Source: Octopus sinensis (taxonomy: Eukaryota). Taken from it: a stretch of DNA of 64,000 nucleotides. The position numbers and the translations under genes are program-made. Positions 27,826 through 56,452 of this stretch are shown here, in pieces. Positions within the stretch are counted from its first letter, which is position 1. The number at the start of each line of letters is the position of its first letter. The notes under the pieces were generated by a model. That model worked only from the letters and a program-made list of their open reading frames with translations. It was not told the DNA's origin and made no database searches. The stretch is from positions 26,598,001-26,662,000 of the forward strand of contig NC_043015.1 of NCBI RefSeq assembly GCF_006345805.1, read 5' to 3'.

Positions 27826-30800
27826 TCATAGAATCATAGTCAAGGTGGCTTCGTCATTTATACGTGCCATCCTTGCTACACTCACCCATCTTTTTTTAAA
27901 ACATTCACTAGACAAAACTTGCCTCTCTACTCTCACTTTCCTCTTCAAGTGATACTTGAAGAAGTTGATGAGAGATTGACCAGAGAGGAAAGTGTTTGTC
28001 TCTAATCCTTTCAGGCGCGTCCACCAGATACATTCTTTCGCCATAGCCAGAAGTATGATAAAAATAGCTCTTCCTTCCCGTTTGAAGGAAGGAGGCGTGA
28101 CGATATTAACGATAGACTCGGCTGATAAACCCACACGTCCCACACGTGACAGCAGTCGATCGACATAAGCCCACAGGTCGGCGATTGCTGGACACTGCAC
28201 GATTGCGTGCAGAGCGGTTTCGTCCCTCTGCCCGCATATCGGGCAGGTCAGTCCCGTGTTTCTCGAGCCATGCCTATAGAGCTTATCCCGAACGGGTAGC
28301 GCTTCTCGGTAGCACCGCCAGGCCAGGGATCTCTGGAAGTTGTCCATAGGTCCCGGCCCGAAAGTCGTTTCAAACAGGCGGGTCAGGTATTCCTCGTCGA
28401 CGCCTAGGTTTGCCCCAAGATCGTCGTCGTACATCCCCTCCACTAATCCCCTATAGAATGCTTTGGTTGTGTTGAAGTCACTCAAGGTCGACCCGGGACG
28501 GCAGAGTTGCTTGAGAGCAACGCGACACTCGCGGTGTCATTCGCCCTTCCTCGGCCTCTTTTTGATCAACGACTGCAGTTCGGTCATGGAGACGAGCTGC
28601 GGGAACGCGTGCCTCACAAACGGCAACCACACCTGTTCACCGTCGTCTACATAGAGCCGGAGATGTCGCAGTCTAGGCGCGTGTCTGCGCCTCATCAACC
28701 ATGGCATGCCCAGCCCTCCTTTTAACGGGTGTTGACAGCAAATGGATCGCCTGACCATCGGGACGCATCCTTTCCACAAGAAGCGGAAGAGAATGCGTTC
28801 TAGTTTGGTGATGGTAGGGATGGGACAAGGTACGACGGTCAGGCAGTAGTAGATGATGGACGCGATGTACGTGTTCGCCACCTCCGCCCGACCTTTTAGG
28901 GACAGTTTCCTCTCGGCCCATTGCTGGGCGAGAGTGACCACCCTACTCGTTATCTCGTTCCAGTTCTTCTCCATTTGGAGGTCCGGACCGAACCAGACTC
29001 CGAGCAACTCAACCGGGCCCTCTGTCCAGCGTCCCACGACGGAGGCGCTGGTGGACGGCATGGGCTTGCTTCTCCAGGTGCCGAGCCGCAAGCCCACTGA
29101 CTTTTCCCGGTTGATTTTTGCTCCTGTCACCGCTTCGTAGTCTTTCAGTGTCTCGCCGACCAGCTCAATGTGCTCGTGGCTTGACACTATGACGGTGACG
29201 TCGTCCGCGTATGCAGACACGCTCGTCCCGCATCCCAATTTTCGCGGGATGCCCCTCAGAGTCACCAGCATCCGCAGTAGTGGCTCAAGAGTCAATACGT
29301 TTAGAAGCGCCGAGAGGAGGCATCCCTGACGGACCGAACGTGCAATGTCGAAAGGTCTCGATAGATGTCCATTCACGCGAATTACCGAACGGATGCCTCT
29401 GTACAAGGCAGCTATCCAGCCGCGGAAGACGGGACCGAAACCAGCCGCTCTCAGGACTGCCTCCAAGTATCGATGGTCAACCCTATCGAAGGCTTTCGAT
29501 TGATCCAAGTTGATCAGGGCCCCACCCATGCCAGGTTCCTTAACTACTCTGTCTATGATGTAGCGCATCAGATGGAGGTTGTCATGGATGCTCCAGCCCG
29601 GCACGGCGCACGTTTGTGCGTTGTCGACTAGTTTCTTGATGACAAGCGCCAACCTCTTGGCTAACACCTTTGTCAAAATTTTCAGGTCTGCATTGAGCAG
29701 AGTGATTGGTCTAAAGTTATCTATAATGTTTCTCTTGTTTGGATCTTTCTTCAGCAGCGTTACGGCTCCTCGACTCACAAAACCGGGTATGCTCCCGTTT
29801 TGCTGCCAGTTGCAGTATACCGCTGCCAAGACGTCTCCAAACAAGTCTGCCATACAATTGTAAAACTCGTAGGGCAGACCATCCAAACCCGGCGATTTGT
29901 CTCTCGAGCATTCTGCCATCGCGTCCCGCACATCCGCCGCCGTGATGGCACCTTCGCAGCACTCTGCCTCTCTTGCCGAGAGTCGTGGTAGGCTGTGCAG
30001 GAAGGCACTGAAGTCCACCCTGCGTTCACGCTCGCCAATCGTCCCGTACAATCAGGCAAAGTGCCGCTGAAATGTCTCGCACATCTTGCTGGGCTCGAGC
30101 AATTCGCGCCCTTGTTCATCTACCAGAAACCGAATGGTGGCTTTGTTGCCCTGCTGCACCTCCGCCACCCGGGCCTCTTCGCGGCTCCAACACCTTCCAT
30201 CCTTAGAGCACGCATCCTAGCCCTGACAGCACACCCTTCGTGTTTGGCGTTGAAGTGTTGGTGAAGGGCCAACCTCACCGCTAAAACGTCGGATGTGATG
30301 CTGCTTCTTATTGCCTCTTCTAACTTCTTAACTAACTCACCCTCTACTCTATTTCTATCTACGGCTAGTGCCTTGCTATATCTAATTGCTTCCGCTTTTA
30401 CTGCTCTCTTGAGGGCGAACCACCATTTGTTGTTGACAATGGCTCCCGTTAAAGCCCTTTTTACTAACGTGTTGATTCTGTCTCTGAAAACATGTCTGGA
30501 CGGGAAAGATGCGTTCAGTTTCCAGTAACCAGGACCCTGTCTATATGCCTTATCTAAGTCTAGCGTACACGTCACGAATTTGTGATCCGTGTAGCTGACT
30601 GTGTGGAATTGTGGACATCCTAAGTTATCCCTGTCTACTGTCCCACACATTATCCTATCTAGATACGATCTCGACGACCCACTGCGGTTGCTCCATGTCC
30701 ACGTTGGTGCATTTGGGTGGTCGAGTCGGTACCTGTCAGACAGTTGGAATCGTCTGAGCAGGTCTCTGAGGCATTTGCATCCCCTTCTGGTTTTTTCTCA

Positions 30801-33366: not shown

Positions 33367-36300
33367 CTTTCTTTATTGGCCACACAGGGCTGAAATACAG
33401 AGGGGACAAATACAAATGTAGAGCTTTTCTTTTCGAAGATGGAAAAAGAAAAAGGAAACAAAAAAAGAAATGAATGTAAAATTCCGATCAAAAGGGATGT
33501 GTAACACAGAAACAAATTTTTTAACAGTAAGAAACAAGATTAAGTTCATCCGTGGGAAGAAAAGCTAGACTACGGTAACCTCGGTCAGGGAGGAAATAAA
33601 CACATGAGAGCAAAGTGCTCTCTCTCTCTCTCTCTTTTACGATTTACAGGATCATGCTCAAAGTGGTTTCGGCACTCGCACGCATCATCTTTGCTACATT
33701 CACCCACCTTTTTTTGAGACTTTCGCGAGACAAAACCTGCCTCTCCGTTCTCACCTTCCTTTTCAAGTGGTACTTGAAAAAGTTGATGAGCGCTTGGCCA
33801 GAGAAGTAAGTGTTTGTCTCTAATCCTTTCGCTCGGGGCCACCACACACATTATTTTACCATGGCCACCAGTACGATGAAAACTGCCTTGCCTTCCCGGT
33901 TGAGGGAAGGGGGCGGAGCAATTCTCACAATAGACTCAGCCCACAGGCGATAGCAGCCGTTCGGCCTAAGCCCACAGGTCTGAAATGGTTGGCCACTGCA
34001 CGAGTGCGTGCAGAACGGTTTCGTCGCTCTGACCGCATCTCCGGCAAGTCGGTCCAGTGTGTCTCGAACCGTGCTTGTAGAGCTTATCACGAACAGGTAA
34101 TGCTTCTCGATAGCACTGCCAGGCCAGGGATCTTTGGTGAATGTCAATAGGTCCCTGCTCGAAAGTCGTCCTGAACAGGCAGGTCAGATGTTCCTCGTCC
34201 ACGCCCAGATTCTGCCCGAAAATCGTCGCACCTCCCCTCCACTAATCCTCTATAGAACGCCTTTGTTGTAATGAAGTCGCACACGTTTGGTCCCGAACGA
34301 CAGAGTTGCTTGGGAGCAACGCGACACTCGCGATGCCATTGGTCTAACCTTGGTCTCTGTTTGATCCACGACTGTAGTTCGGCCAAGGAGACGAGCTGCG
34401 GGAAAGCGCGTCGCACAAAAGGCGAATACACCTGTTCACCGTCGTCTATGAAGCTCCAGAGATGTTGCAGTCTCAGCGCATGTCTGCGCATCATCAACCA
34501 CGGCATACCTAGTCCTCCATTTAGCGGGTGTTGACTGCAAATGGATCGCCTAACCATCGGAACGCTTCCCTTCCACAGGAAGCGGAAGAGTATGCGTTCC
34601 AGTTTGGTGATGGTAGGGTCGGGACAAGGCACGACGGTCAGACGGTATCGATGACGGATACGATGTACGCGTTCGGCACCTCCGCTCGACCTTTTAGGGA
34701 TAGCTTCCTCTCAGCCCATTGCTGGGTGAGAGTTATTTCACCCCAGTTCTTCTCCATTTGGAGGTCCGGACCGAACCAGACTCCGAGCAATTTAACCGGT
34801 CCGTCTGTCCAGTGTCCCACGATGGAGACGCTGTTGGACGGCATGGGATTGCTTCTCCAGGTGCCGAGCCGCAAGCCCACTGACTTTTCCCGGTTAATTT
34901 TTGCTCCCGTTACCGCTTCGTATTCTTTTAGTGTCTCTCCGACCAGGTCGATGTGCTTGTGGCTCGACACTATGACGGTGACGTTGTCCGCATATGCAGA
35001 CACGCTCCTCTCACATCCCAGCTCTCGTGGGATGCCCCTCAGCGTCGCCAGTTTCCGCAGTAGTGGCTAAAGAGTCAATACATACAGAAGCGATGAGAGG
35101 GGGCATCCTTGAAGAACCGAACGCATGATGTTAAAAGGGCTGGATAGATGACCATTTACGCGAACTACCGAGCGGATGCCGCTATATAAAGCAGCGATCT
35201 AACCGCGGAAGACGGGACCGAAACCAGCCACTTTAAGGACAGCCTCCAAGTAGTGATGATCTACTCTATCGAAAGCTTTTGATTGATCTAAATTGATCAG
35301 CGCCCCACCCATGCCAGGATCCTTAACTACCCTGTCTATGATGTACCGCATCAGATGGAGGTTGTCATGGATTCTCCTACCCGGCACGGCGCACGTTTGC
35401 GCCTTGTCGACTAAACTAGCGCCAATCTCTCGGCTAAAACCTTGGCCAAAATTTTCAAATCTGCGTTGAGCAGAGTGATGGGCCTGATATTATCTATGAC
35501 GGATCTTTTCTTAACAGTGCCACTGCTCCTCGCTTTACAAAGGCGGGGATACTCCCGTTTTGCTGCTAGTTGCAGTAGACAGCTGCCAAGGCACCTCCAA
35601 ACAAGTCTGGCATATGACAATATAGTTCGTAGGGCAGACCATCCAAGCCTGGTGACTTGTCTCTCGCGCAGCCTGCCGTCGCATCCCGTACGTCCGCGGC
35701 TGTGATGGGTTTTTCACAACACTCCGCCTCTCTTGCAGGGCATGTACGCGTTCGCCACCTCCGCCCGACCTTTTAGTAGTGGCAGGGCATGTAGGTAGGC
35801 ACTAAAGTCCACTCTGCGTTCTGACCCACCACTTGTCCCAAACAGTTGGGTAGTGTTGTTGAAAATCCTGACACATCCTTTCAGGCTCGAGTAATTCGCG
35901 CCCCTGTTCATCTGTAAGTGACCTGATGGTGGCTCTGTTACCTCGTTCCGTCTCCCCCACTCTGGCCCCTCGGGCGACTCCAACTCCTTCGTTCCTCAGA
36001 GCACGCATCCTAGCTTGAGAACGCATCCTTCGTGTTTGGCGTTGAGGTGTTGGTCGAGGGCCAACCTCGCTGCCAGTACGTTGGACGCGATGCCAGTTCT
36101 AAGTGCTTCTTCTAAATTCTTAACTAAGTCTCCCTCTATTCTATTTCGGTCTAATGCTAGGGCCTTACTGTACCTGACCGATTCTGCTTTAATTGCTTTC
36201 TTTAGAGCATACCACCATCTGTTGTTAATGATGGCACCCATCAATGCTCTCTTAACTAATGTGCTAATCGGGTCCCTGTAAGCCTGTCGTGCCGTAAAGA

Positions 36301-37837
36301 CGCGTTCAGCTTCCAGTAACCAGGACCCTGCCCATGTGTCTTATCTAAGTCAAGTGTACAAGTCACAAATTTGTGGTCTGTGTAGCTGACTATATGGAAT
36401 TGTGGACAACCTACACTATCTTTATCTACTGTCCTACAGAATACTCTATCTAAGTACGATCTGGACGACCCGATGCGATTCCTCCATAACCACATTGGCA
36501 CATTCGGGTGTTCCAGTCGGTACCTGTCAGACAGTTGGAAACGTCTGAGCAGGTCTTTAAGGCATTTGCATCCACTCCTATTACTATCTCTGCCCACGTA
36601 GTCTAGATGCGTGTCCAGGGTGGGGTTCCAATCCCCCACTAAAAGTAAAGGTCGCGACGTTCCCAGAAAAACCTCTAGTCGTCGAAAGAAATCTGGCCGG
36701 CCTGTTAAGGCCGGTGCATAAAATGTTATCAGTCGAAAGGCACACTCATTGCTGCCATCGACATCCAAAACGACCAGCCTACCCTCCGGGTCTACGAATA
36801 TTGCTCTTTCTTTGAGGTCCAGACTCTCCCGGAGGAGCACCGCGGTGCCACCTCCGCCCATTCTCGGTAGACACGGAAAAAAGTAAATGTTGAAATGTGC
36901 GCCGAACATGTGCTGGAGTGCCCGCGAGCTGTGGAGTCTGGTCTCACTGATGGCTATGATGTGCAGATTTTGTGACCTGATGTCATTTAACAGGTAGCCT
37001 TGTCTCCAAGGTGACCTGAAGCCACGTACATTTATACTGCCTACTTTGAGCATGTTCCGATCGAAAGTATGTTTTACACACGAAAGGAATATGAAAAAGA
37101 AAGAGAGAAAGAGAGAGTCACTTCCTGTTCGAAAGTTCTTTGTTCTTCACCTCACAGTCCCTTTCCAGAAGGTTTTTATACAGTTTTTTGGACAAATATT
37201 TTTGAAATCTCCCAACTGCCTCAGGGTAGAGAGATTTCAGGGTACTGTGTGTGTTCTGTGTTATGTGTATGATTTTAATGTGTTGCGGTAGAGTTGTGCG
37301 TGGGTGATTCTTTGTTTTGGTATCATTTTCGGTTATGTTGGTGTTTGACCTAATATATTCCATTAGGTCGGGGTTGTTGGTGTTTATGGCTGTCAACATT
37401 GTTGTGGGGTTTGATGATAGTGTGTTTGTGTTGATATGTTTGTTTTCTGCGGATGTTTTAGTTTCGGGAGTTGTAAACCTCTCTGCTTTGTTTGTCTGCT
37501 TCTCTATTCTTTTTTCCCCTTTTTCTCCCCCACCCCCCGGTGGCTATTTGCCAATCCTCCGTGTCATCTTCATCTAATGACATGTCAAAGGAATCAGAAG
37601 GTGGGAGGGGAAGTGTATTGGGGTCTATTTCTGACTGTGTTGACTTTGGTGTTGGTGCTGGTTGGTGACCGTTGGGGTGTGGTGTATGGGTTTTGGGAGG
37701 TGGGGTATGGGTATTTTGTGTTTGTGTGATTGTAGGTATTGTTGTGGTGCGTGGGGTGTGTGTTGTTGGGGGATTGGGAGTAGTAATTGTCACTTCTTCA
37801 TCCTCGGTGCTTGTCTTTTTGGTAGTTGTTCTTGGTG
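33365..37837 (-). mobile_element. 5'-truncated Tx1-clade LINE, copy 2 (diverged subfamily)
   Basis: APE at 37053-36256 (GSINVRGF, ISETRL, GDWN, YLDR, YTDH), RT fragments (QSKAFDRVDH, SAYADN) and a zinc finger. The 3' tail matches copy 1, and the element is truncated within ORF1 at (GATA)n. Confidence 0.92.
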
Positions 37838-37998: not shown

Positions 37999-38320
37999 GG
38001 AAAACAATAGGAAAACAGCTGTTCATGCAGGGATGAAAAATTGTGCCCGTTAAATGGAGCTTGCATGTCCGAGACCAACATCTACGAAGATACCGTGGAC
38101 TATATACCCACTAAAGACACAGTTTCGACGAAGAAATACGTGGGCCTTACAGAGGATAATTTCAAGGCCAGGTTCAATAATCACACCTTGAGCTTTAGGC
38201 ACTGGGACAAAAGGAAAACGACAAAATTATTCAGTCATATATGGCCATTAAAAGATAAAGGTGTCAGTTACAACATCCATAGGAAGATTTTAGCCAAATG
38301 TAAGCCCTACACCAACGACA
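37998..38320 (+). mobile_element. Penelope-like GIY-YIG fragment, probably followed by its 3' region to about 39420
   Basis: [15 protein letters not shown]...NIY...KKYVGLTEDNFKARFNNHTLSFR...TKLFSHIWPLKDKG...KILAKCKPY. Confidence 0.85.
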
Positions 38321-40052
38321 CGGCTCATCTGGAAAAGCAACTTAGACCCCGATACATGTCTGAACTCAAGGACAGAACTTTTCGGATCATGCCTACAGGT
38401 GGTCAAATTTTTGTTACGTTTTTGGTTCCCCCAAGACTACAGATGGAACTTGTTTTCTATATTGTGTCCACGCACAAGATTTTTATCTCATTATACCTAT
38501 TACTTTTACTTTATTTATATTTTTATACGTATATTTCTTACACATTACAGAGGATTTGGTTTATCGATATATTTTTTACACATAATTTTTTCTGTAATCT
38601 ACCTTCCACCCTGCATTTTTCCCTGTGCCTATATAGACGTATGTATGGAATCCTTTGTGCGCGCTGTGGATGTGTGCGTGTGTGCGGGTTTGTGTGTATA
38701 TATATGTGTGCGTGTGTGCGTGCATGCGAGTACGTGCGTATATAGACGTATTTTATTCAGTGTTTTTACACATTTTCCTGTATTTTTTAGACGTATGTAT
38801 AATCCTTTTTTGTGCGTGCGTGTGTGCGTATATAGACGTGTGCGGCTATGTGCCTATTTGGATGTGTGTGTGTGTGTGTGTGCGTGCATAAGTGTATGTG
38901 CGTATATAAACGTGGTTTACTCTTTGTATACTTTCTTTTGCCTTTTTCGGTATAGTTACCCTTAACCCTGCTTTTTCTTGTGTTTGTGCGTACGTAGACT
39001 TTTACGATAGGCGTGTGTGTGTGCGGGGGGGGGGGGTTGTATGCATATGCATATATATTTGGTGAAGGATGCGAGTGAAGATGTGTACGTTTATCTAGTG
39101 AGGGTGGATGAATGTTTGCGTACGCACGTGGATGTGCGGGCGCACATGTGTAGGTATGAACAGGCGCGCTTACGCGAATACTATGAACTTTTTACCCCCT
39201 TACCTTAATTAGTGGTCATTCCAATAGCTCTTTTGTTTTAATAGCGGTCAATAACACAATAATTTCCCTTTGAATAACGGTCATTTTTCATAGCGTTTTT
39301 CCGATGGCCGGATAACTGATGATATGGTGGCGTGGATTTCCATTAATGGTTGTATTAATTTATTGCTATGAGCATGTGGTTGTGTACTTTTTAGTATGTT
39401 AATACTTATTAGTATCTGCTTTTCTGTATGTGTGACTATTGCGGTCGGTTTCAATACAATTTGAGACAGAATATTTTGGGGGGCCCTTTGATCTTTTAAC
39501 CCTATTTAAACATAATTTCTGTTCAAACTATTTCTTGGTCCCATCTTTGTATTCTCAGCTGTTCCTTATTGCTTCTTATTGTTCCTTATTGGAGCCACGT
39601 ACATTGTGTTTTATCTTACTTTTTAAAATGTATATTAAATACTTTCAAAGTGTTTTTTTTATTTAACCCTTCAGCATTCAGATTACCTTCTTAAATGTAA
39701 TGCTTATTTATTCACGCAGTTTTGAATTAATAATGCATTGGCTCTTTGGTTCGAAATTTCAATGATGTGATAGTTTATTTTTAGAATGACTTTGTAAGGT
39801 AAATAGGAAAAACTAGATCCAGTTAGTTAGAACAGAAAACAGAATATTTTGGCTTGATATGACTGGCGTAATTTAATCATTTTACTTCCTCTCTCATCCC
39901 TTTCCAATCTTTTGGCTACATTACGGATAGTCAATTCCTAACCTTAGATCCCGCATCTTAATCGATATGATAAAAAACATATTATTCATATTTATTCTTT
40001 AATGACCATACCGCGCGAATTTTGTCTACTTTTGATATTTCATATATTGTAT

Positions 40053-51544: not shown

Positions 51545-51860
51545 GTGCAGGTGTGGCTGTGTGGTAACAAACTTGGTTCCAAAATACATGGTCCTCAGTT
51601 CAGTCCCACTATGTGGTAACTCGGCATGTGTCTTCTGCTATAGCCTCAGACCAACCAAAGCCTTGTTAGTGGATTTTGTAGACAGAAACTGAAATAAATC
51701 AATTGTATACATATGTAAATATATATGTGAGTCTATGTGTGTGTGTTTGTGTTTCTCCCTCATCACTGTTTCACAACTGGTGTTCGTTTATTTACATCCC
51801 CATAACTGACTGGTTTCGCAAGAAGAAACGGATAGAATAAGTACCAGGCTTATCAAAATA
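51545..51860 (+). mobile_element. tRNA-derived SINE (second family)
   Basis: A-box-like GTGGCTGTGTGGTAA, B-box-like CAGTTCAGTCCC, internal (GT)n and GATAGAATAAGTACCAGGCTT. Confidence 0.65.
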
Positions 51861-51960
51861 ATAAAAGCACTAGGCACTGTCTCATATTTTTGTTTGCCCA
51901 CTCAGTTGTATCTTTCAATTGATCTTTGTGTGTGTGTGTATACATACATACATACATACA

Positions 51961-52004
<44 letters not shown>

Positions 52005-52013
52005 GGGGGGGGC

Positions 52014-52047: not shown

Positions 52048-52230
52048 GGGGGGCAAAGGATAGTGATTGCGTCACCCATAGCCTCTCCTCTCCAGGTGTA
52101 ATGATCGCTGCAGAACTTCTACTTGGCTGCGCCTTGTGGAAAGTTCTTGCTAATGGCCTCTCCTGCACTACTGTGTCCACAACAGCACCTTCACGCGGTA
52201 CCCCCTGTTCTCACTGAGCCTGCTGTGTGG
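52048..52230 (+). ncRNA. HDV/CPEB3-like self-cleaving ribozyme candidate at the RTE 5' end
   Basis: P1 GGGGGGC (52048-54) with ACCCCCT (52200-06); P3 ACC/GGT; L3 TTCACGC; GT; J4/2 CTGA (C52214); P2 CACAACAGC with GCCTGCTGTG. Confidence 0.7.
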
Positions 52231-52791
52231 CGCGACCGGGTGCTTGGCGGTATAACCAGGTGGGCAGACTGGGCTCGTTAGCCTTGGTTGGCAGCCAGTC
52301 TAGGAGAAGGAAAACTCTGACTCCAAACCCTCGCTCCGCTGCCTTGCGGATGCTCTTGGGAGAGGGAAAGGCTATGGGAGTAAACCCAGACAGAAAATCC
52401 GGAGTGGAGCCCCGAAGGCGGTAGGGTGTCCAATCTCGACCCCTTTCCGGCAACTCCTGCAGCCAACCAGACTCCAAACGTACTGCACTGCATTCCTTTG
52501 GATTATGTCTGGGGGGCCGAGAGGGAGATTCTGGTGTCTGGGCAGCCCAGTGTCTTCGTTTCTACCGCCCAGGCTTGCGCCATGGAGAAACTACTCCATC
52601 GATGGAACAAGCTGAGATGGCAGTTACGAGTTATAAGCCAGGGTGAATTGACGTAATCCCGGGCGCTACGGGCCGCCTCTAACGGTGGGAGGGATCATTG
52701 AAGTCCCACTGGTCAGCTACCGCCCGCCTTAAGCTGGGAAGCCCCCGGCCAATAATGGTGCTGACCCGCCACAGACTGCCCGCTTCAATGG

Positions 52792-55700
52792 GTGCTTGGA
52801 GCTAGGACAAAATCTGAAAAGCAGACTGAAAACCCTGCACCAGCAAACAAAGGAAAAACAAACACCCAGTCACCAGTCTTGCGACTGGCCACCTGGAATG
52901 TCAGTACCATGTGCCCTGGCATCATTGACGATCTACGACAGATGAACGACAGTAGGAAGACAGCAGTCATCAACACCGAATTGAAAAGGCTGAACATCGA
53001 CATAGCGGCGCTGCAAGAGACCAGGCTCGCCGCAGACGGCATGCTACGGGAGAAGGACTACACCTTCTACTGGCAGGGGAGACCCGTCGAGGAGGCCCGC
53101 CAGCATGGCGTTGGGTTTGCCGTGAGGAACAGCTTGCTCCCCATGGTGATCCCTCCTTCAAATGGCTCAGAGCGCATCCTCACTCTTAACCTTGCAACAT
53201 CAACGGGGAAGGCAAACATAATTAGTGCTTATGCCCCAACACTCCACTCTCCTCAGGAAATAAAAGACCGGTTCTATGAGGAGCTCGACGCCACCAGCAG
53301 CCAGATACCAGGGTCGGAGCCCATCTTCCTTCTGGGCGACTTCAACGCAAGGGTGGGATCCGATCATGGGGCATGGCCAGATTGCCTTGGACGCTTTGGC
53401 GTGGGGAAGGTGAATGAGAATGGCCAGAGACTGTTGGAGCTTTGCTCTTACCGGAAACTCTGCGTTTCCAACACATTCTTCATGACTAAGCCGCATCACC
53501 AGGTCTCATGGAGGCACCCAAGGTCCGGACACTGGCACCAACTGGACATGGTCATCACCCGGCGAACCCACCTCGGCAGTGTGCTTCTCACACGCAGCTA
53601 CCATGGTGCTGACTGTGATACAGACCACTCTTTGGTGTGCAGCAGGGTCCGATTGGCCCCAAAGAAAATCAACCGTCCCGTAGGGAAAAGCCGCCCACGC
53701 ATCAACACCGCCAGGACAACCAACCCCGACCTCAGCTCGGAATTCACCAACCGCATGGAGGAGGCCCTTAAAGATCACGCAGCCACGTCCATTGAGGAGA
53801 GATGGCAGATTATTCGCGACACCACTTGCAGAATAGCCATGTCATCCCTAGGAAAGAGGGAGCGGAGAAATCAAGACTGGTTTGAAGCTCACCTGCCTGA
53901 GATGGAGCCTGTCATTGCTGCCAAGAGGGAAGCACTGGTCAACTATAAGCGCGACCCATCAGAAAAGAACCTGGCTACTCTGAGAACAGCCAGAAGCGAC
54001 GCCCAGAGGACGGCCAGACGTTGCGCCAACGTCTACTGGCAGAACTTATGCCAGAACATCCAGTGCTGTGCTGACAGTGGTAACGTGAAAGGGATGTACG
54101 AGGGGATGAAGAAAGCATTCGGGCCCACTGTCAGAAAGGTTGCTCCACTGAAGTCCAGAGATGGCGAGGTCATCGAGGACCAAGCGAAGCAGATGGAGAG
54201 GTGGGTCGAGCATTACCAGAACCTCTACTCCACTGAGAATGTGGTCACCAGGTCTGCCCTCGCCGGCATTCCTGCTCTGCCTGTCATGGAGGAGCTTGAC
54301 CTGCCTCCAACAAAGGAAGAACTGAGCAAAGCAATTGACTCACTCGCTCGGGGCAAGGCACCAGGGCAAGACGGCATCCCCGCAGAAGTCATCCAGTGCG
54401 GGAAGCCAGCCCTTTTGGGCCATCTCCACGAGCTGCTCTGTCAGTGCTGGGAGGAGGGCTCTGTCCCTAAGGATATGCGTGACGCAAACATCATCACACT
54501 GTATAAAAACAAAGGGGACAGAAGCGACTGCAATAATTACAGGGGCATATCACTGCTCAGCACTGTCGGTAAGGCATTTGCCAGGGTGGTCCTGAAGAGG
54601 TTGCAAATACTTGCAGAGCGTGTGTACCACGAGTCTCAGTCTGGCTTTAGGGCAGAGAGGTCTACAATTGACATGATCTTCTCACTCAGGCAGCTTCAAG
54701 AAAACAGTCGAGAACAGAGACAGCCCCAATACGTGGCCTTCATCGACCTGGCTAAGGCGTTCGACTCAGTCAGCAGGGAGGGGCTGTTTACGCTCCTGGG
54801 TAGGATAGGTTGCCCTCCCAGACTGCTGAAACTCATCACCTCCTTTCACGACGGTATGCAGGGAACAGTGCAGTTTGACGGATCGCCCTCGGAGTCATTC
54901 CCCATCCAGAATGGAGTGAAACAGGGTTGCGTTCTGGCGCCGACGCTCTTCGGAATTTTCTTCTCCCTTGTCCTGTCCTATGCCTTCAGAACGTCCGACG
55001 ACGGAGTGTTCCTCCACACCAGGGCTGATGGTGGATTGTTCAATCTTGCGCGCCTCAGAGCTAAGACCAAAGTCCGTCAGGTGCTGATCAGAGAGATCCT
55101 CTTTGCTGACGATGCCGCCCTAACATCACACAACCAACCGGGTCTCCAGAGGCTGGTCAGCTCCCTGGCGGATGCCTGCCAAGAGTTCGGCCTTACCATC
55201 AGCCTGAAAAAGACAGAGATCATGGGCCAGGACGTCGGAGGGGTCCCCAGCATCAGTGTCGGCGACCACAGCTTGCAGGTGGTGAACGAGTTCACTTACC
55301 TGGGATCGACGGCCTCCAGCAGCCTGTCCCTCGAGCCGGAGCTGAACAGGCGGATTGGGAAGGCTGCTGCTGCCATGGCTAAGCTCTCCAGGAGAGTGTG
55401 GGAAAACAACATGCTCACAATAACCACCAAGATCGCAGTGTACCGAGCCTGCGTGCTGAGCACCCTACTCTACGGCAGCGAGAGCTGGACAACATACACT
55501 CGGCGGCTTCCACATGCGGTGTCTTCGACGGATCCTTGGCATCTCCTGGAAGGACCGAGTACCAAACGGAGTCATCCTGGAACAGACTAATATGCCAAGC
55601 ATGTATGCCCTCCTCGTGCGGAGACGACTGCGCTGGCTCGGACACGTCTGTCGTATGCAGGACGGTCGCATGCCTAAAGACATCCTGTACAGCGAACTCA

Positions 55701-56026
55701 CCACGGGATCCCGACCCAAGGGACGTCCACAGCTACGATACAGGGACGTGTGCAAGCGCAACCTGAGGACTGCCAACATCTGTGTGGACACGTGGGAGGA
55801 AACAGCTGCTGACCGCTCTGCCTGGCGTCGGACGGTGAGGAAAGGCGTTTCCATGGCTGAGGAGAGGAGAGCACAGCTGTGGTTGGACAGGCGGGACAGA
55901 AGGAGGACAACTGCAGCAACACCCCACACGTACCCATCGATGTTCGTGTGCAGCAACTGTACCAAGGACTGCCACTCTAGAATTGGACTGTTCAGTCACA
56001 GCAGACGCTGCACATCATCAAAGTAG
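52792..56026 (+). pseudogene. RTE ORF (APE endonuclease, RT, zinc finger) with one frameshift near 55504
   Basis: TWNV, AALQETR, GVGF, AYAPT, LGDFNAR, DTDH, NYRGISLLS, FIDLAKAFDSV, GVKQGCVLAP, LFADD, YLGS. It continues in another frame as MRCLRRIL...RLRWLGHV.RM...CSNC..DCHSRIGLFSHSRRC. Confidence 0.93.
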
Positions 56027-56077
56027 ACCCCACCCTTGGCGCAACCCATTGTCTATCAAGACAGACGGGGATAAAGA

Positions 56078-56114
<37 letters not shown>

Positions 56115-56124
56115 GAATTTCGTA

Positions 56125-56400
56125 AACAGGAACTGAAACAAATTAATCCTATATATATGTATGTATATATGTAAGTGTATGTGTGTGTCTTTGTCTCTGT
56201 GTTTCGCCCTCATCACTGCTTCACAACTGCTCTTCATTCATTTAAATCCCCATAACTTACTGGTTTCACAAGAACAAACTAATATAATAAGTACCAGGCT
56301 TATCAACATAAAAAACCCACTAGGCTGTGTCTCATAATTTTGTTTGCCCACTCACTTGTATCTATCAATTTATCTTTGTATGTGTGTGTTTGTATATATC
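56125..56400 (+). repeat. Diverged direct duplicate of 51680-51955
   Basis: Shared blocks CCCTCATCACTG.TTCACAACTG, CCCCATAACT.ACTGGTTTC, AATAAGTACCAGGCTTATCAA and TTGTTTGCCCACTCA.TTGTATCT. Confidence 0.85.
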
Positions 56401-56402
56401 AA

Positions 56403-56452
<50 letters not shown>

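What the first reader, a model, noticed from the sequence alone, without database searches (positions are those of the whole stretch)
52048..52230. CPEB3/HDV-like ribozyme with essentially no P4 starting at the first base of the RTE LINE
Seen: the element starts GGGGGGC-AAA, and about 130 nt later reads CAGC-ACC-TTCACGC-GGT-ACCCCCT-GT-TCTCA-CTGA-GCCTGCTGTG. This fits the nested double pseudoknot: a 7-position P1 with G.U at the cleavage site and a C.A mismatch at the far end, a 3-bp P3, a 7-nt L3 and a single-pair P1.1. The putative catalytic C52214 lies in a CUGA J4/2, and P2 is imperfect. J1/2 is long and contains its own hairpin (GCAGAACTT...AAGTTCTTGC). Known: the mammalian CPEB3 ribozyme has GGGGGCC..GCG-UUCACGU-CGC-AGCCCCU-GU, and HDV-like ribozymes process the 5' ends of R2 and some RTE elements. 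Inference: the ribozyme frees the element from read-through transcripts. The predicted cut coincides with the element boundary, and the long-J1/2, P4-less layout is unusual.
Basis: partly seen in the sequence, partly recalled or inferred. Interest (0 to 1): 0.8.

Follow-up and report, generated by a model that had tools for sequence, protein, structure and literature searches.

The report
HDV-like ribozyme heading an RTE LINE
The first 185 bases of this jumping gene fit the pattern of a hepatitis-delta-type self-cutting RNA whose predicted cut falls on the base where most genomic copies begin, a known arrangement that likely trims the element's RNA out of host transcripts, although this particular copy carries a mutation predicted to misfold it.

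Summary
Window 52048-52227 fits an HDV-like double pseudoknot at the first base of a 4-kb APE+RT LINE. It is the only descriptor hit in 64 kb, and 0 of 20,000 anchored shuffles give one. Of about 38 independent genomic insertions, 25 start at G52048 and 5 within two bases; none shares upstream sequence beyond extra Gs. Self-cleavage is likely for the family but untested: no covariation (copies ~98% alike), no Rfam hit, no RNA ends. The layout is not unusual: active silkmoth R2 ribozymes have a long J1/2 and no P4, and an abalone one has 5 nt in place of P4 (PMC3774820). This copy has A52182 where 42 of 44 copies have G, and is predicted to slip P2; its ORF is frameshifted. The less ordinary find lies downstream: 14 of 44 copies end at element nt 553-561, just after a hairpin, some with target-site duplications, which suggests repeated internal priming that yields ribozyme-headed 5'-UTR-only copies. 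The scan noted similar 5' ribozymes in other genomes, not this sequence. Verdict: new member of a known kind.

The parts
52003..52013 (+). Upstream G-run plus C inside the TA microsatellite; looks like a duplicated fragment of the element's first bases and could act as an alternative P1 5' strand
   Evidence: descriptor accepts G1 at 52003-52007 as well as 52048; similar upstream fragment in L008
52048..52054 (+). P1 5' strand; G52048 is the predicted cleavage-site G1 and the element's first base
52055..52177 (+). Long J1/2 (123 nt) with an internal hairpin 52110-52150 and a weak closing helix (about 52057-63 with 52158-64)
   Evidence: J1/2 alone folds at z -1.9 here, but -1.75, -1.56 and +0.19 in three sister copies
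52178..52186 (+). P2 5' strand; this copy has A at 52182 (A.C mismatch), the family has G
52187..52199 (+). P3 (3 bp) with 7-nt L3
   Evidence: L3 matches the Rfam CPEB3 consensus at 6 of 7 bases while P3 differs in sequence and still pairs (consensus line)
52200..52208 (+). P1 3' strand and the GU that closes P1.1
52209..52213 (+). 5-nt loop in place of P4
   Evidence: same length as the abalone ribozyme cited in PMC3774820
52214..52217 (+). J4/2 (C-N-R-A) with predicted catalytic C52214
   Evidence: only C at this descriptor position gives hits
52218..52234 (+). P2 3' strand (9 bp with one bulged C to 52227; predicted extension to 52234)
52582..52599 (+). 6-bp hairpin in the 5' UTR, kept with two double-sided changes in relative L031
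   Evidence: two sequences only
52600..52608 (+). Internal hotspot where many sister copies end (element nt 553-561)
52765..55590 (+). Open frame with APE endonuclease and reverse transcriptase; no in-frame ATG before the first endonuclease motif; a 17-nt deletion near 55500 shifts the frame
55460..56026 (+). C-terminal part of the protein in the other frame, ending in a zinc-finger-like Cys/His motif
56033..56077 (+). 3' end: small stem-loop (56050-56063), short purine-rich tail, then TA repeat

Best explanation
The 5' 185 nt of this young LINE family is likely an HDV-like ribozyme that would cut just before G52048, the base where most copies begin, and so would release the element's RNA from longer host transcripts; this copy is predicted to fold poorly. 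Shown: the pairing scheme fits, the start is shared, the element encodes APE+RT. Inferred: P1 pairs across the 123-nt J1/2, P2 stacks on P3, C52214 is the catalytic base, and the uncapped product is the template whose full-length cDNA ends at G1. Inferred from other elements: the cleaved 5' UTR also helps start translation, which fits the missing in-frame ATG. In the window copy A52182 favours a P2 register slipped by 3 nt that also pulls A52187 out of P3.
For: Single descriptor hit in 64 kb, 0 with false catalytic bases, 0 of 20,000 anchored shuffles, 21 of 44 copies pass. 31 of 44 copies align from G1 and 4 from base 2; after merging copies with a shared flank, 25 of 38 from G1 and 30 of 38 within the first three bases. 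The 40 copies found with a query lacking the first 100 nt are all among these, and 33 of them start within the first three bases. A fixed-position core pattern has 32 matches in 2.7 Gb, all this family, control 2. In sister copies P2 forms unaided (pair probability about 0.9 for 7 pairs) and P3 at 0.3. L3 and the CCCCU-GU stretch match the Rfam CPEB3 consensus while P3 changes on both strands. RTE, R2, R4 and L1Tc elements are reported to be cut at their 5' junction by such ribozymes (passages of PMC3774820, PMC5786205, PMC6765202).
Against: No cleavage assay. No Rfam match; drz-agam-2-2 finds nothing in the genome; a model built from other CPEB3-like repeats of this genome does not pick out the site. 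No covariation: copies are about 98% alike, rare differences are as frequent in the core as outside (about 1% per cell), and shared variants are 1 of 57 core columns against 18 of 593 outside, which has no power. No diverged relative with an intact 5' end was found. The whole motif does not fold better than shuffles as a nested structure (z -0.60), P1 has probability 0 in the nested ensemble, a competing hairpin covers GU and J4/2, and the helix closing J1/2 is weak, although PMC4908430 says large ribozymes need one. My descriptor was written knowing the candidate.
Confidence: 0.82

Rival explanations
1. The HDV-like fold is real but slow or inactive on its own; it survives as a structured 5' end for translation or protein binding, or needs a protein to fold.
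For: Competing hairpin over GU and J4/2, bulged C two pairs into P2, weak J1/2 closure that differs among copies. The B. mori R2 ribozyme of this layout has very low activity (PMC3774820 section 13).
Against: A sharp shared start at G1 still needs a process that makes that end; other silkmoth ribozymes of this layout cleave 10-40%.
Confidence: 0.1
2. An internal promoter starts transcription at G52048 and the pseudoknot is a coincidence or a relic.
For: Some copies carry 1-4 extra Gs at the junction (L005, L011, L013, L025, L161, L162), which cap copying could give; L1Tc has both promoter and ribozyme in its first 77 nt (passage of PMC4758252). No RNA data exclude it.
Against: Chance of the fold using base 1 as G1 is under 1 in 20,000 shuffles. 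RTE elements are described as lacking their own promoters (passage of PMC6765202). Extra Gs may equally be slippage or homopolymer error.
Confidence: 0.08

Closest known systems
[quoted passage not shown]
   Same: Cut at the element's first base; large J1/2 domain; extended P2 (12 bp in Agam-2, PMC4908430; up to 14 bp predicted here).
   Different: No P4 here; J1/2 closing helix weak; Rfam drz-agam-2-2 does not match. The primary RTE paper (Ruminski 2011) was not held, so its sequences were not compared.
Silkmoth R2 ribozymes (PMC3774820)
   Same: Very long J1/2 together with no P4; catalytic C and constrained A in J4/2.
   Different: R2 is site-specific and takes its P1 5' strand from 28S rRNA; here P1 is wholly inside an APE-type element that inserts mostly in TA repeats.
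Minimal HDV-like ribozymes (drz-Mtgn-1, theta ribozymes; abalone ribozyme with 5 nt for P4)
   Same: P4 replaced by a short loop.
   Different: Phage minimal ribozymes have short J1/2 (passages of PMC10879173); the abalone sequence was not seen.
Mammalian CPEB3 ribozyme (Rfam RF00622)
   Same: Near-identical P1 and L3 letters, GU after P1, single-pair P1.1, shared CAGCAG/CUGCUG in P2 (consensus line).
   Different: CPEB3 has a 1-3 nt J1/2 and a 7-bp P4, and a different P3; the model gives no hit here. Descent versus convergence not tested.

Membership tests
HDV-like ribozyme | P1 of 6-7 bp opening with G.U at the cut site | tested here: met
   6 pairs plus distal C.A
HDV-like ribozyme | 3-bp P3 with 7-nt L3 of the conserved type, and G after P1 for P1.1 | tested here: met
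   comparison with consensus
HDV-like ribozyme | P2 of 5 bp or more joined to P3, preceded by C-N-R-A | tested here: met
   9 bp with one bulge in 42 of 44 copies at the 52182 pair; 8 pairs and a mismatch in this copy
HDV-like ribozyme | Covariation in P1, P2, P3 among homologues | tested here: inconclusive
   copies too alike; no diverged 5' ends found
HDV-like ribozyme | Mg2+-dependent self-cleavage lost with C-to-U | not testable with these tools
   needs an assay
Rfam CPEB3_ribozyme (RF00622) | Score at or above the gathering threshold; short J1/2 and P4 present | tested here: not met
   the 28 genome matches are other repeats
Rfam drz-agam-2-2 (RF01788) | Model match | tested here: not met
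   0 matches among 34 scored candidates
RTE-clade LINE | Single ORF with APE endonuclease then RT, short 3' UTR with stem-loop and simple tail | tested here: met
RTE-clade LINE | Placement in the RTE clade on an RT tree with named references | not tested
   homologues are almost all unnamed; the label RTE rests on anatomy and recall

The most novel reading that the evidence does not exclude
This LINE's 5' UTR is a self-contained retrotransposition template: the ribozyme makes its 5' end, and a conserved hairpin at 52582-52599 makes the element's RT prime internally just behind it, so that over a third of the 5'-bearing insertions are 560-nt ribozyme-headed copies made again and again without the element's own 3' end.
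Probability: 0.5. Interest if true: 0.55.

Novelty: new member of a known kind. Interest (0 to 1): 0.33.

Why it matters
As a ribozyme it adds one more RTE-type example, probably from an octopus, and one more natural P4-less, long-J1/2 case; a specialist would expect it. It gives a ready test pair, since natural copies differ at one P2 base. The internal end hotspot matters more: LINEs of this kind are thought to need their 3' tail for priming, and a 5'-UTR hairpin that directs priming would offer a simple route to short ribozyme-headed elements and to the RTE 5'-UTR fragments found inside SINEs (PMC5786205).

Tried and rejected
Rfam scans of the window and of a sister copy: no ribozyme family. 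Genome search with drz-agam-2-2: none. A covariance model from 23 CPEB3-like repeats of this genome did not detect the site in the window or in 10 sister loci. Sequencing runs: no RNA holder listed; only contigs, which cannot show ends; contigs that run from host flank into the element come from a copy with a broken core or a 5'-truncated copy, but the runs are not on record as RNA, so I draw nothing from it. Alternative P4 (3-bp hairpin 52210-18) rejected: it leaves no C-N-R-A before P2. A CPEB3-like core at L095 has no P1 or P2 partner and was dropped. The idea that the internal end site copies the true 3' end in sequence was not supported: local alignment does not single it out. The idea that the short copies are one SINE-like lineage was rejected: they are spread over haplotypes shared with long copies. 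My first alignment of CPEB3-like hits had five mis-addressed rows and was redone. Ruminski 2011 and Webb 2009 were not held.

Full report
What is there. A TA microsatellite gives way at 52048 to six Gs and a C, and a GC-rich element runs to about 56077. It encodes an APE endonuclease and a reverse transcriptase in one frame (Pfam), with a 17-nt deletion near 55500 relative to six sister copies and a short 3' stem-loop and tail. The label RTE rests on this anatomy and on recall; I built no tree. The host is probably an octopus: the genome is 2.72 Gb with contigs C1-C30 among the large ones, and a second LINE family here has a 1109-residue frame from its first Met and a 601-nt 5' UTR, the sizes published for RTE-2_OV (passages of PMC9115989). 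That family is only 46% identical to ours in the endonuclease, so ours is a different element.

The fold. P1 is G52048.U52206 plus five G-C pairs and a distal C.A; P3 is 52187-89 with 52197-99 around a 7-nt L3; GU follows P1; five bases replace P4; CUGA at 52214-17 precedes the 3' strand of P2. Against the Rfam CPEB3 consensus printed, L3 agrees at 6 of 7 bases while P3 has other letters that still pair. A strict descriptor passed many sister copies but not the window copy, with hits in 2 of 2000 element shuffles and 0 of 100 window shuffles. I then allowed one bulge and one mismatch in P2: one site in the window on both strands, none with A, G or T in place of the catalytic C, 21 of 44 copies pass, 4 of 3000 element shuffles hit anywhere, and 0 of 20,000 shuffles hit with G1 at the first base. 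A pattern with the core positions fixed has 32 matches in the genome, all from this family, against 2 for the reversed control. No library model recognises it, nor does a model built from other CPEB3-like repeats of the same genome; those models expect a short J1/2 or a P4.

The boundary. I gathered 44 copies (30 loci, 4, 2, 8). 31 align from G1, 4 from base 2, 1 from base 3, and 8 are 5'-truncated by 4 to 99 nt; none continues the match upstream except for 1-4 extra Gs in six copies. Seven or eight copies share an upstream flank and are probably one duplicated insertion; merged, 25 of 38 start at G1 and 30 of 38 within three bases. The 40 copies returned by a query that lacked the first 100 nt give the same picture, 33 of 40. 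The search tool scores only the best candidates, so these are lower bounds.

Conservation gives little. Copies are about 98% alike. Rare differences run at about 1% per cell in core, J1/2 and downstream UTR alike, as expected for decay after insertion; variants shared by three or more copies fall in 1 of 57 core columns (a CpG in L3) and 18 of 593 other columns, some of them due to the duplicated cluster. That neither supports nor harms the model. Contigs from other runs add only J1/2 changes, the G at 52182 and one P3 change belonging to copy L019. No diverged relative with a whole 5' end was obtained.

This copy. 42 of 44 copies have G at 52182; this copy and L024 have A. In three sister copies seven P2 pairs form at probability about 0.9 and P3 at 0.3; in the window copy P2 is at 0.0 and P3 at 0.07, and the nested P2+P3 energy is -4.9 against -11.6 kcal/mol. 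The predicted fold slips P2 by three bases and pairs A52187 with U52221. These programs cannot form pseudoknots, so P1 scores 0 in all copies, and a hairpin over GU and J4/2 competes even in the family form. With its frameshift, this copy is likely a weakened, non-autonomous relic.

How it likely works. A host transcript runs into the element; P1 forms across J1/2, P2 stacks on P3, and C52214 promotes cleavage before G1. The product is the template for target-primed reverse transcription, so complete copies start at G1. There is no in-frame ATG before the first endonuclease motif in this copy, L140 or L148, which fits the IRES-like role described for such ribozymes (passages of PMC6765202). 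Only the fit, the boundary and the missing ATG are shown.

Against what is known. HDV-like ribozymes are reported at the 5' junction of RTE, R2, R4 and L1Tc elements (passages of PMC3774820 and PMC5786205). Large J1/2 domains with an extended P2 are the subject of PMC4908430 (part 1 of 4 read). PMC3774820 section 13 (read whole) describes silkmoth R2 ribozymes with J1/2 of 216-498 nt and no P4 that cleave and lose activity with C-to-U, and cites an abalone ribozyme with 5 nt in place of P4. P4-less minimal forms are covered in passages of PMC10879173. I found no paper on a ribozyme in an octopus LINE (searches; passages of PMC13282606 and PMC4758252 hold none), but Ruminski 2011 and Webb 2009 were not held and their supplements may list molluscan RTE cases. 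Of PMC9115989's supplements I saw the list and part 1 of one file, which had no element sequence.

The unexpected part. 14 of 44 copies stop at element nt 553-561 (window 52600-52608) and pass into TA repeats or a short tail; of 21 3'-truncated copies ending between nt 424 and 844, 14 fall in those 9 bases. An independent 16-base pattern at that site has 50 matches: 32 continue as the element, 17 stop within 6 bases, 1 is unrelated; its reversed control matched 44 times, so the count alone proves nothing, but the flanks identify the copies. Four copies ending there are also 5'-truncated. L181 and L182 have 12-bp duplications around them and L019 (nt 2-603) an 11-bp one; most others sit in TA repeats where duplications cannot be read. 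The short copies are spread across haplotypes shared with long copies. The ends begin right after a 6-bp hairpin that relative L031 keeps with two double-sided changes (two sequences, 123 of 500 shuffles as good). Internal priming by the element's RT is my reading; an RNA that ends there, or a template jump from the extreme 3' tail, would look similar. One search for internal priming in RTE elements found no paper, which is thin cover.

Verdict. A real feature, most likely a working ribozyme in the family (0.82), a new member of a known kind, probably damaged in this copy. Interest 0.33, lifted a little by the internal end hotspot.

Noticed in passing
window 52582-52608; L003, L006, L007, L009, L011, L020, L021, L025, L026, L078, L090, L100, L163, L167, L177, L178, L180-L182: Many copies end at element nt 553-561 just after a hairpin; some have target-site duplications; they arise on several haplotypes.
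   Followed up: yes
L125-L139 (about 1500-1580), L168-L176: The Rfam CPEB3 model finds 28 matches in this genome, 2 over the gathering score. 23 aligned hits fall into two old repeat groups with short J1/2 and a P4; 73.5% of cells pair, against 35-48% for slid controls, and 35 cells change on both sides (4 of 500 shuffles). No RT match downstream within the fetched DNA of L125-L139. Likely decayed CPEB3-like ribozymes heading unknown repeats.
   Followed up: partly
L035-L064, e.g. L037 760-900: A second young LINE family, sized like RTE-2_OV, also has a sharp 5' start and several crossing stems but no HDV core and no Rfam hit. Truncated twister ribozymes are mentioned for RTE 5' ends (PMC7761336); not tested here.
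   Followed up: partly
L005, L008, L015, L098, L179, L185, L191: Internally deleted copies; L015 and L098 join nt about 650 to the last 170 nt; L179 starts at G1 but has lost the ribozyme core between two CTCCTGCA repeats.
   Followed up: partly
window 51670-52000 and 56113-56450: The element sits between two 81%-identical copies of a SINE-like repeat.
   Followed up: no
L193 5' junction: An inverted piece of the element (about nt 557-600) abuts the G-run, like a 5' inversion.
   Followed up: no
L018, L022, L023, L027, L029, L030, L162, L164: Copies share an upstream flank; two lie near chromosome-scale contig ends; probably one insertion in a duplicated block.
   Followed up: partly
window 27829-30797 (-), 36259-37146 (-), 38011-38742 (+): Open frames that look like fragments of other retroelements (Tx1/L1-like and Penelope-like by recall); not searched.
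   Followed up: no
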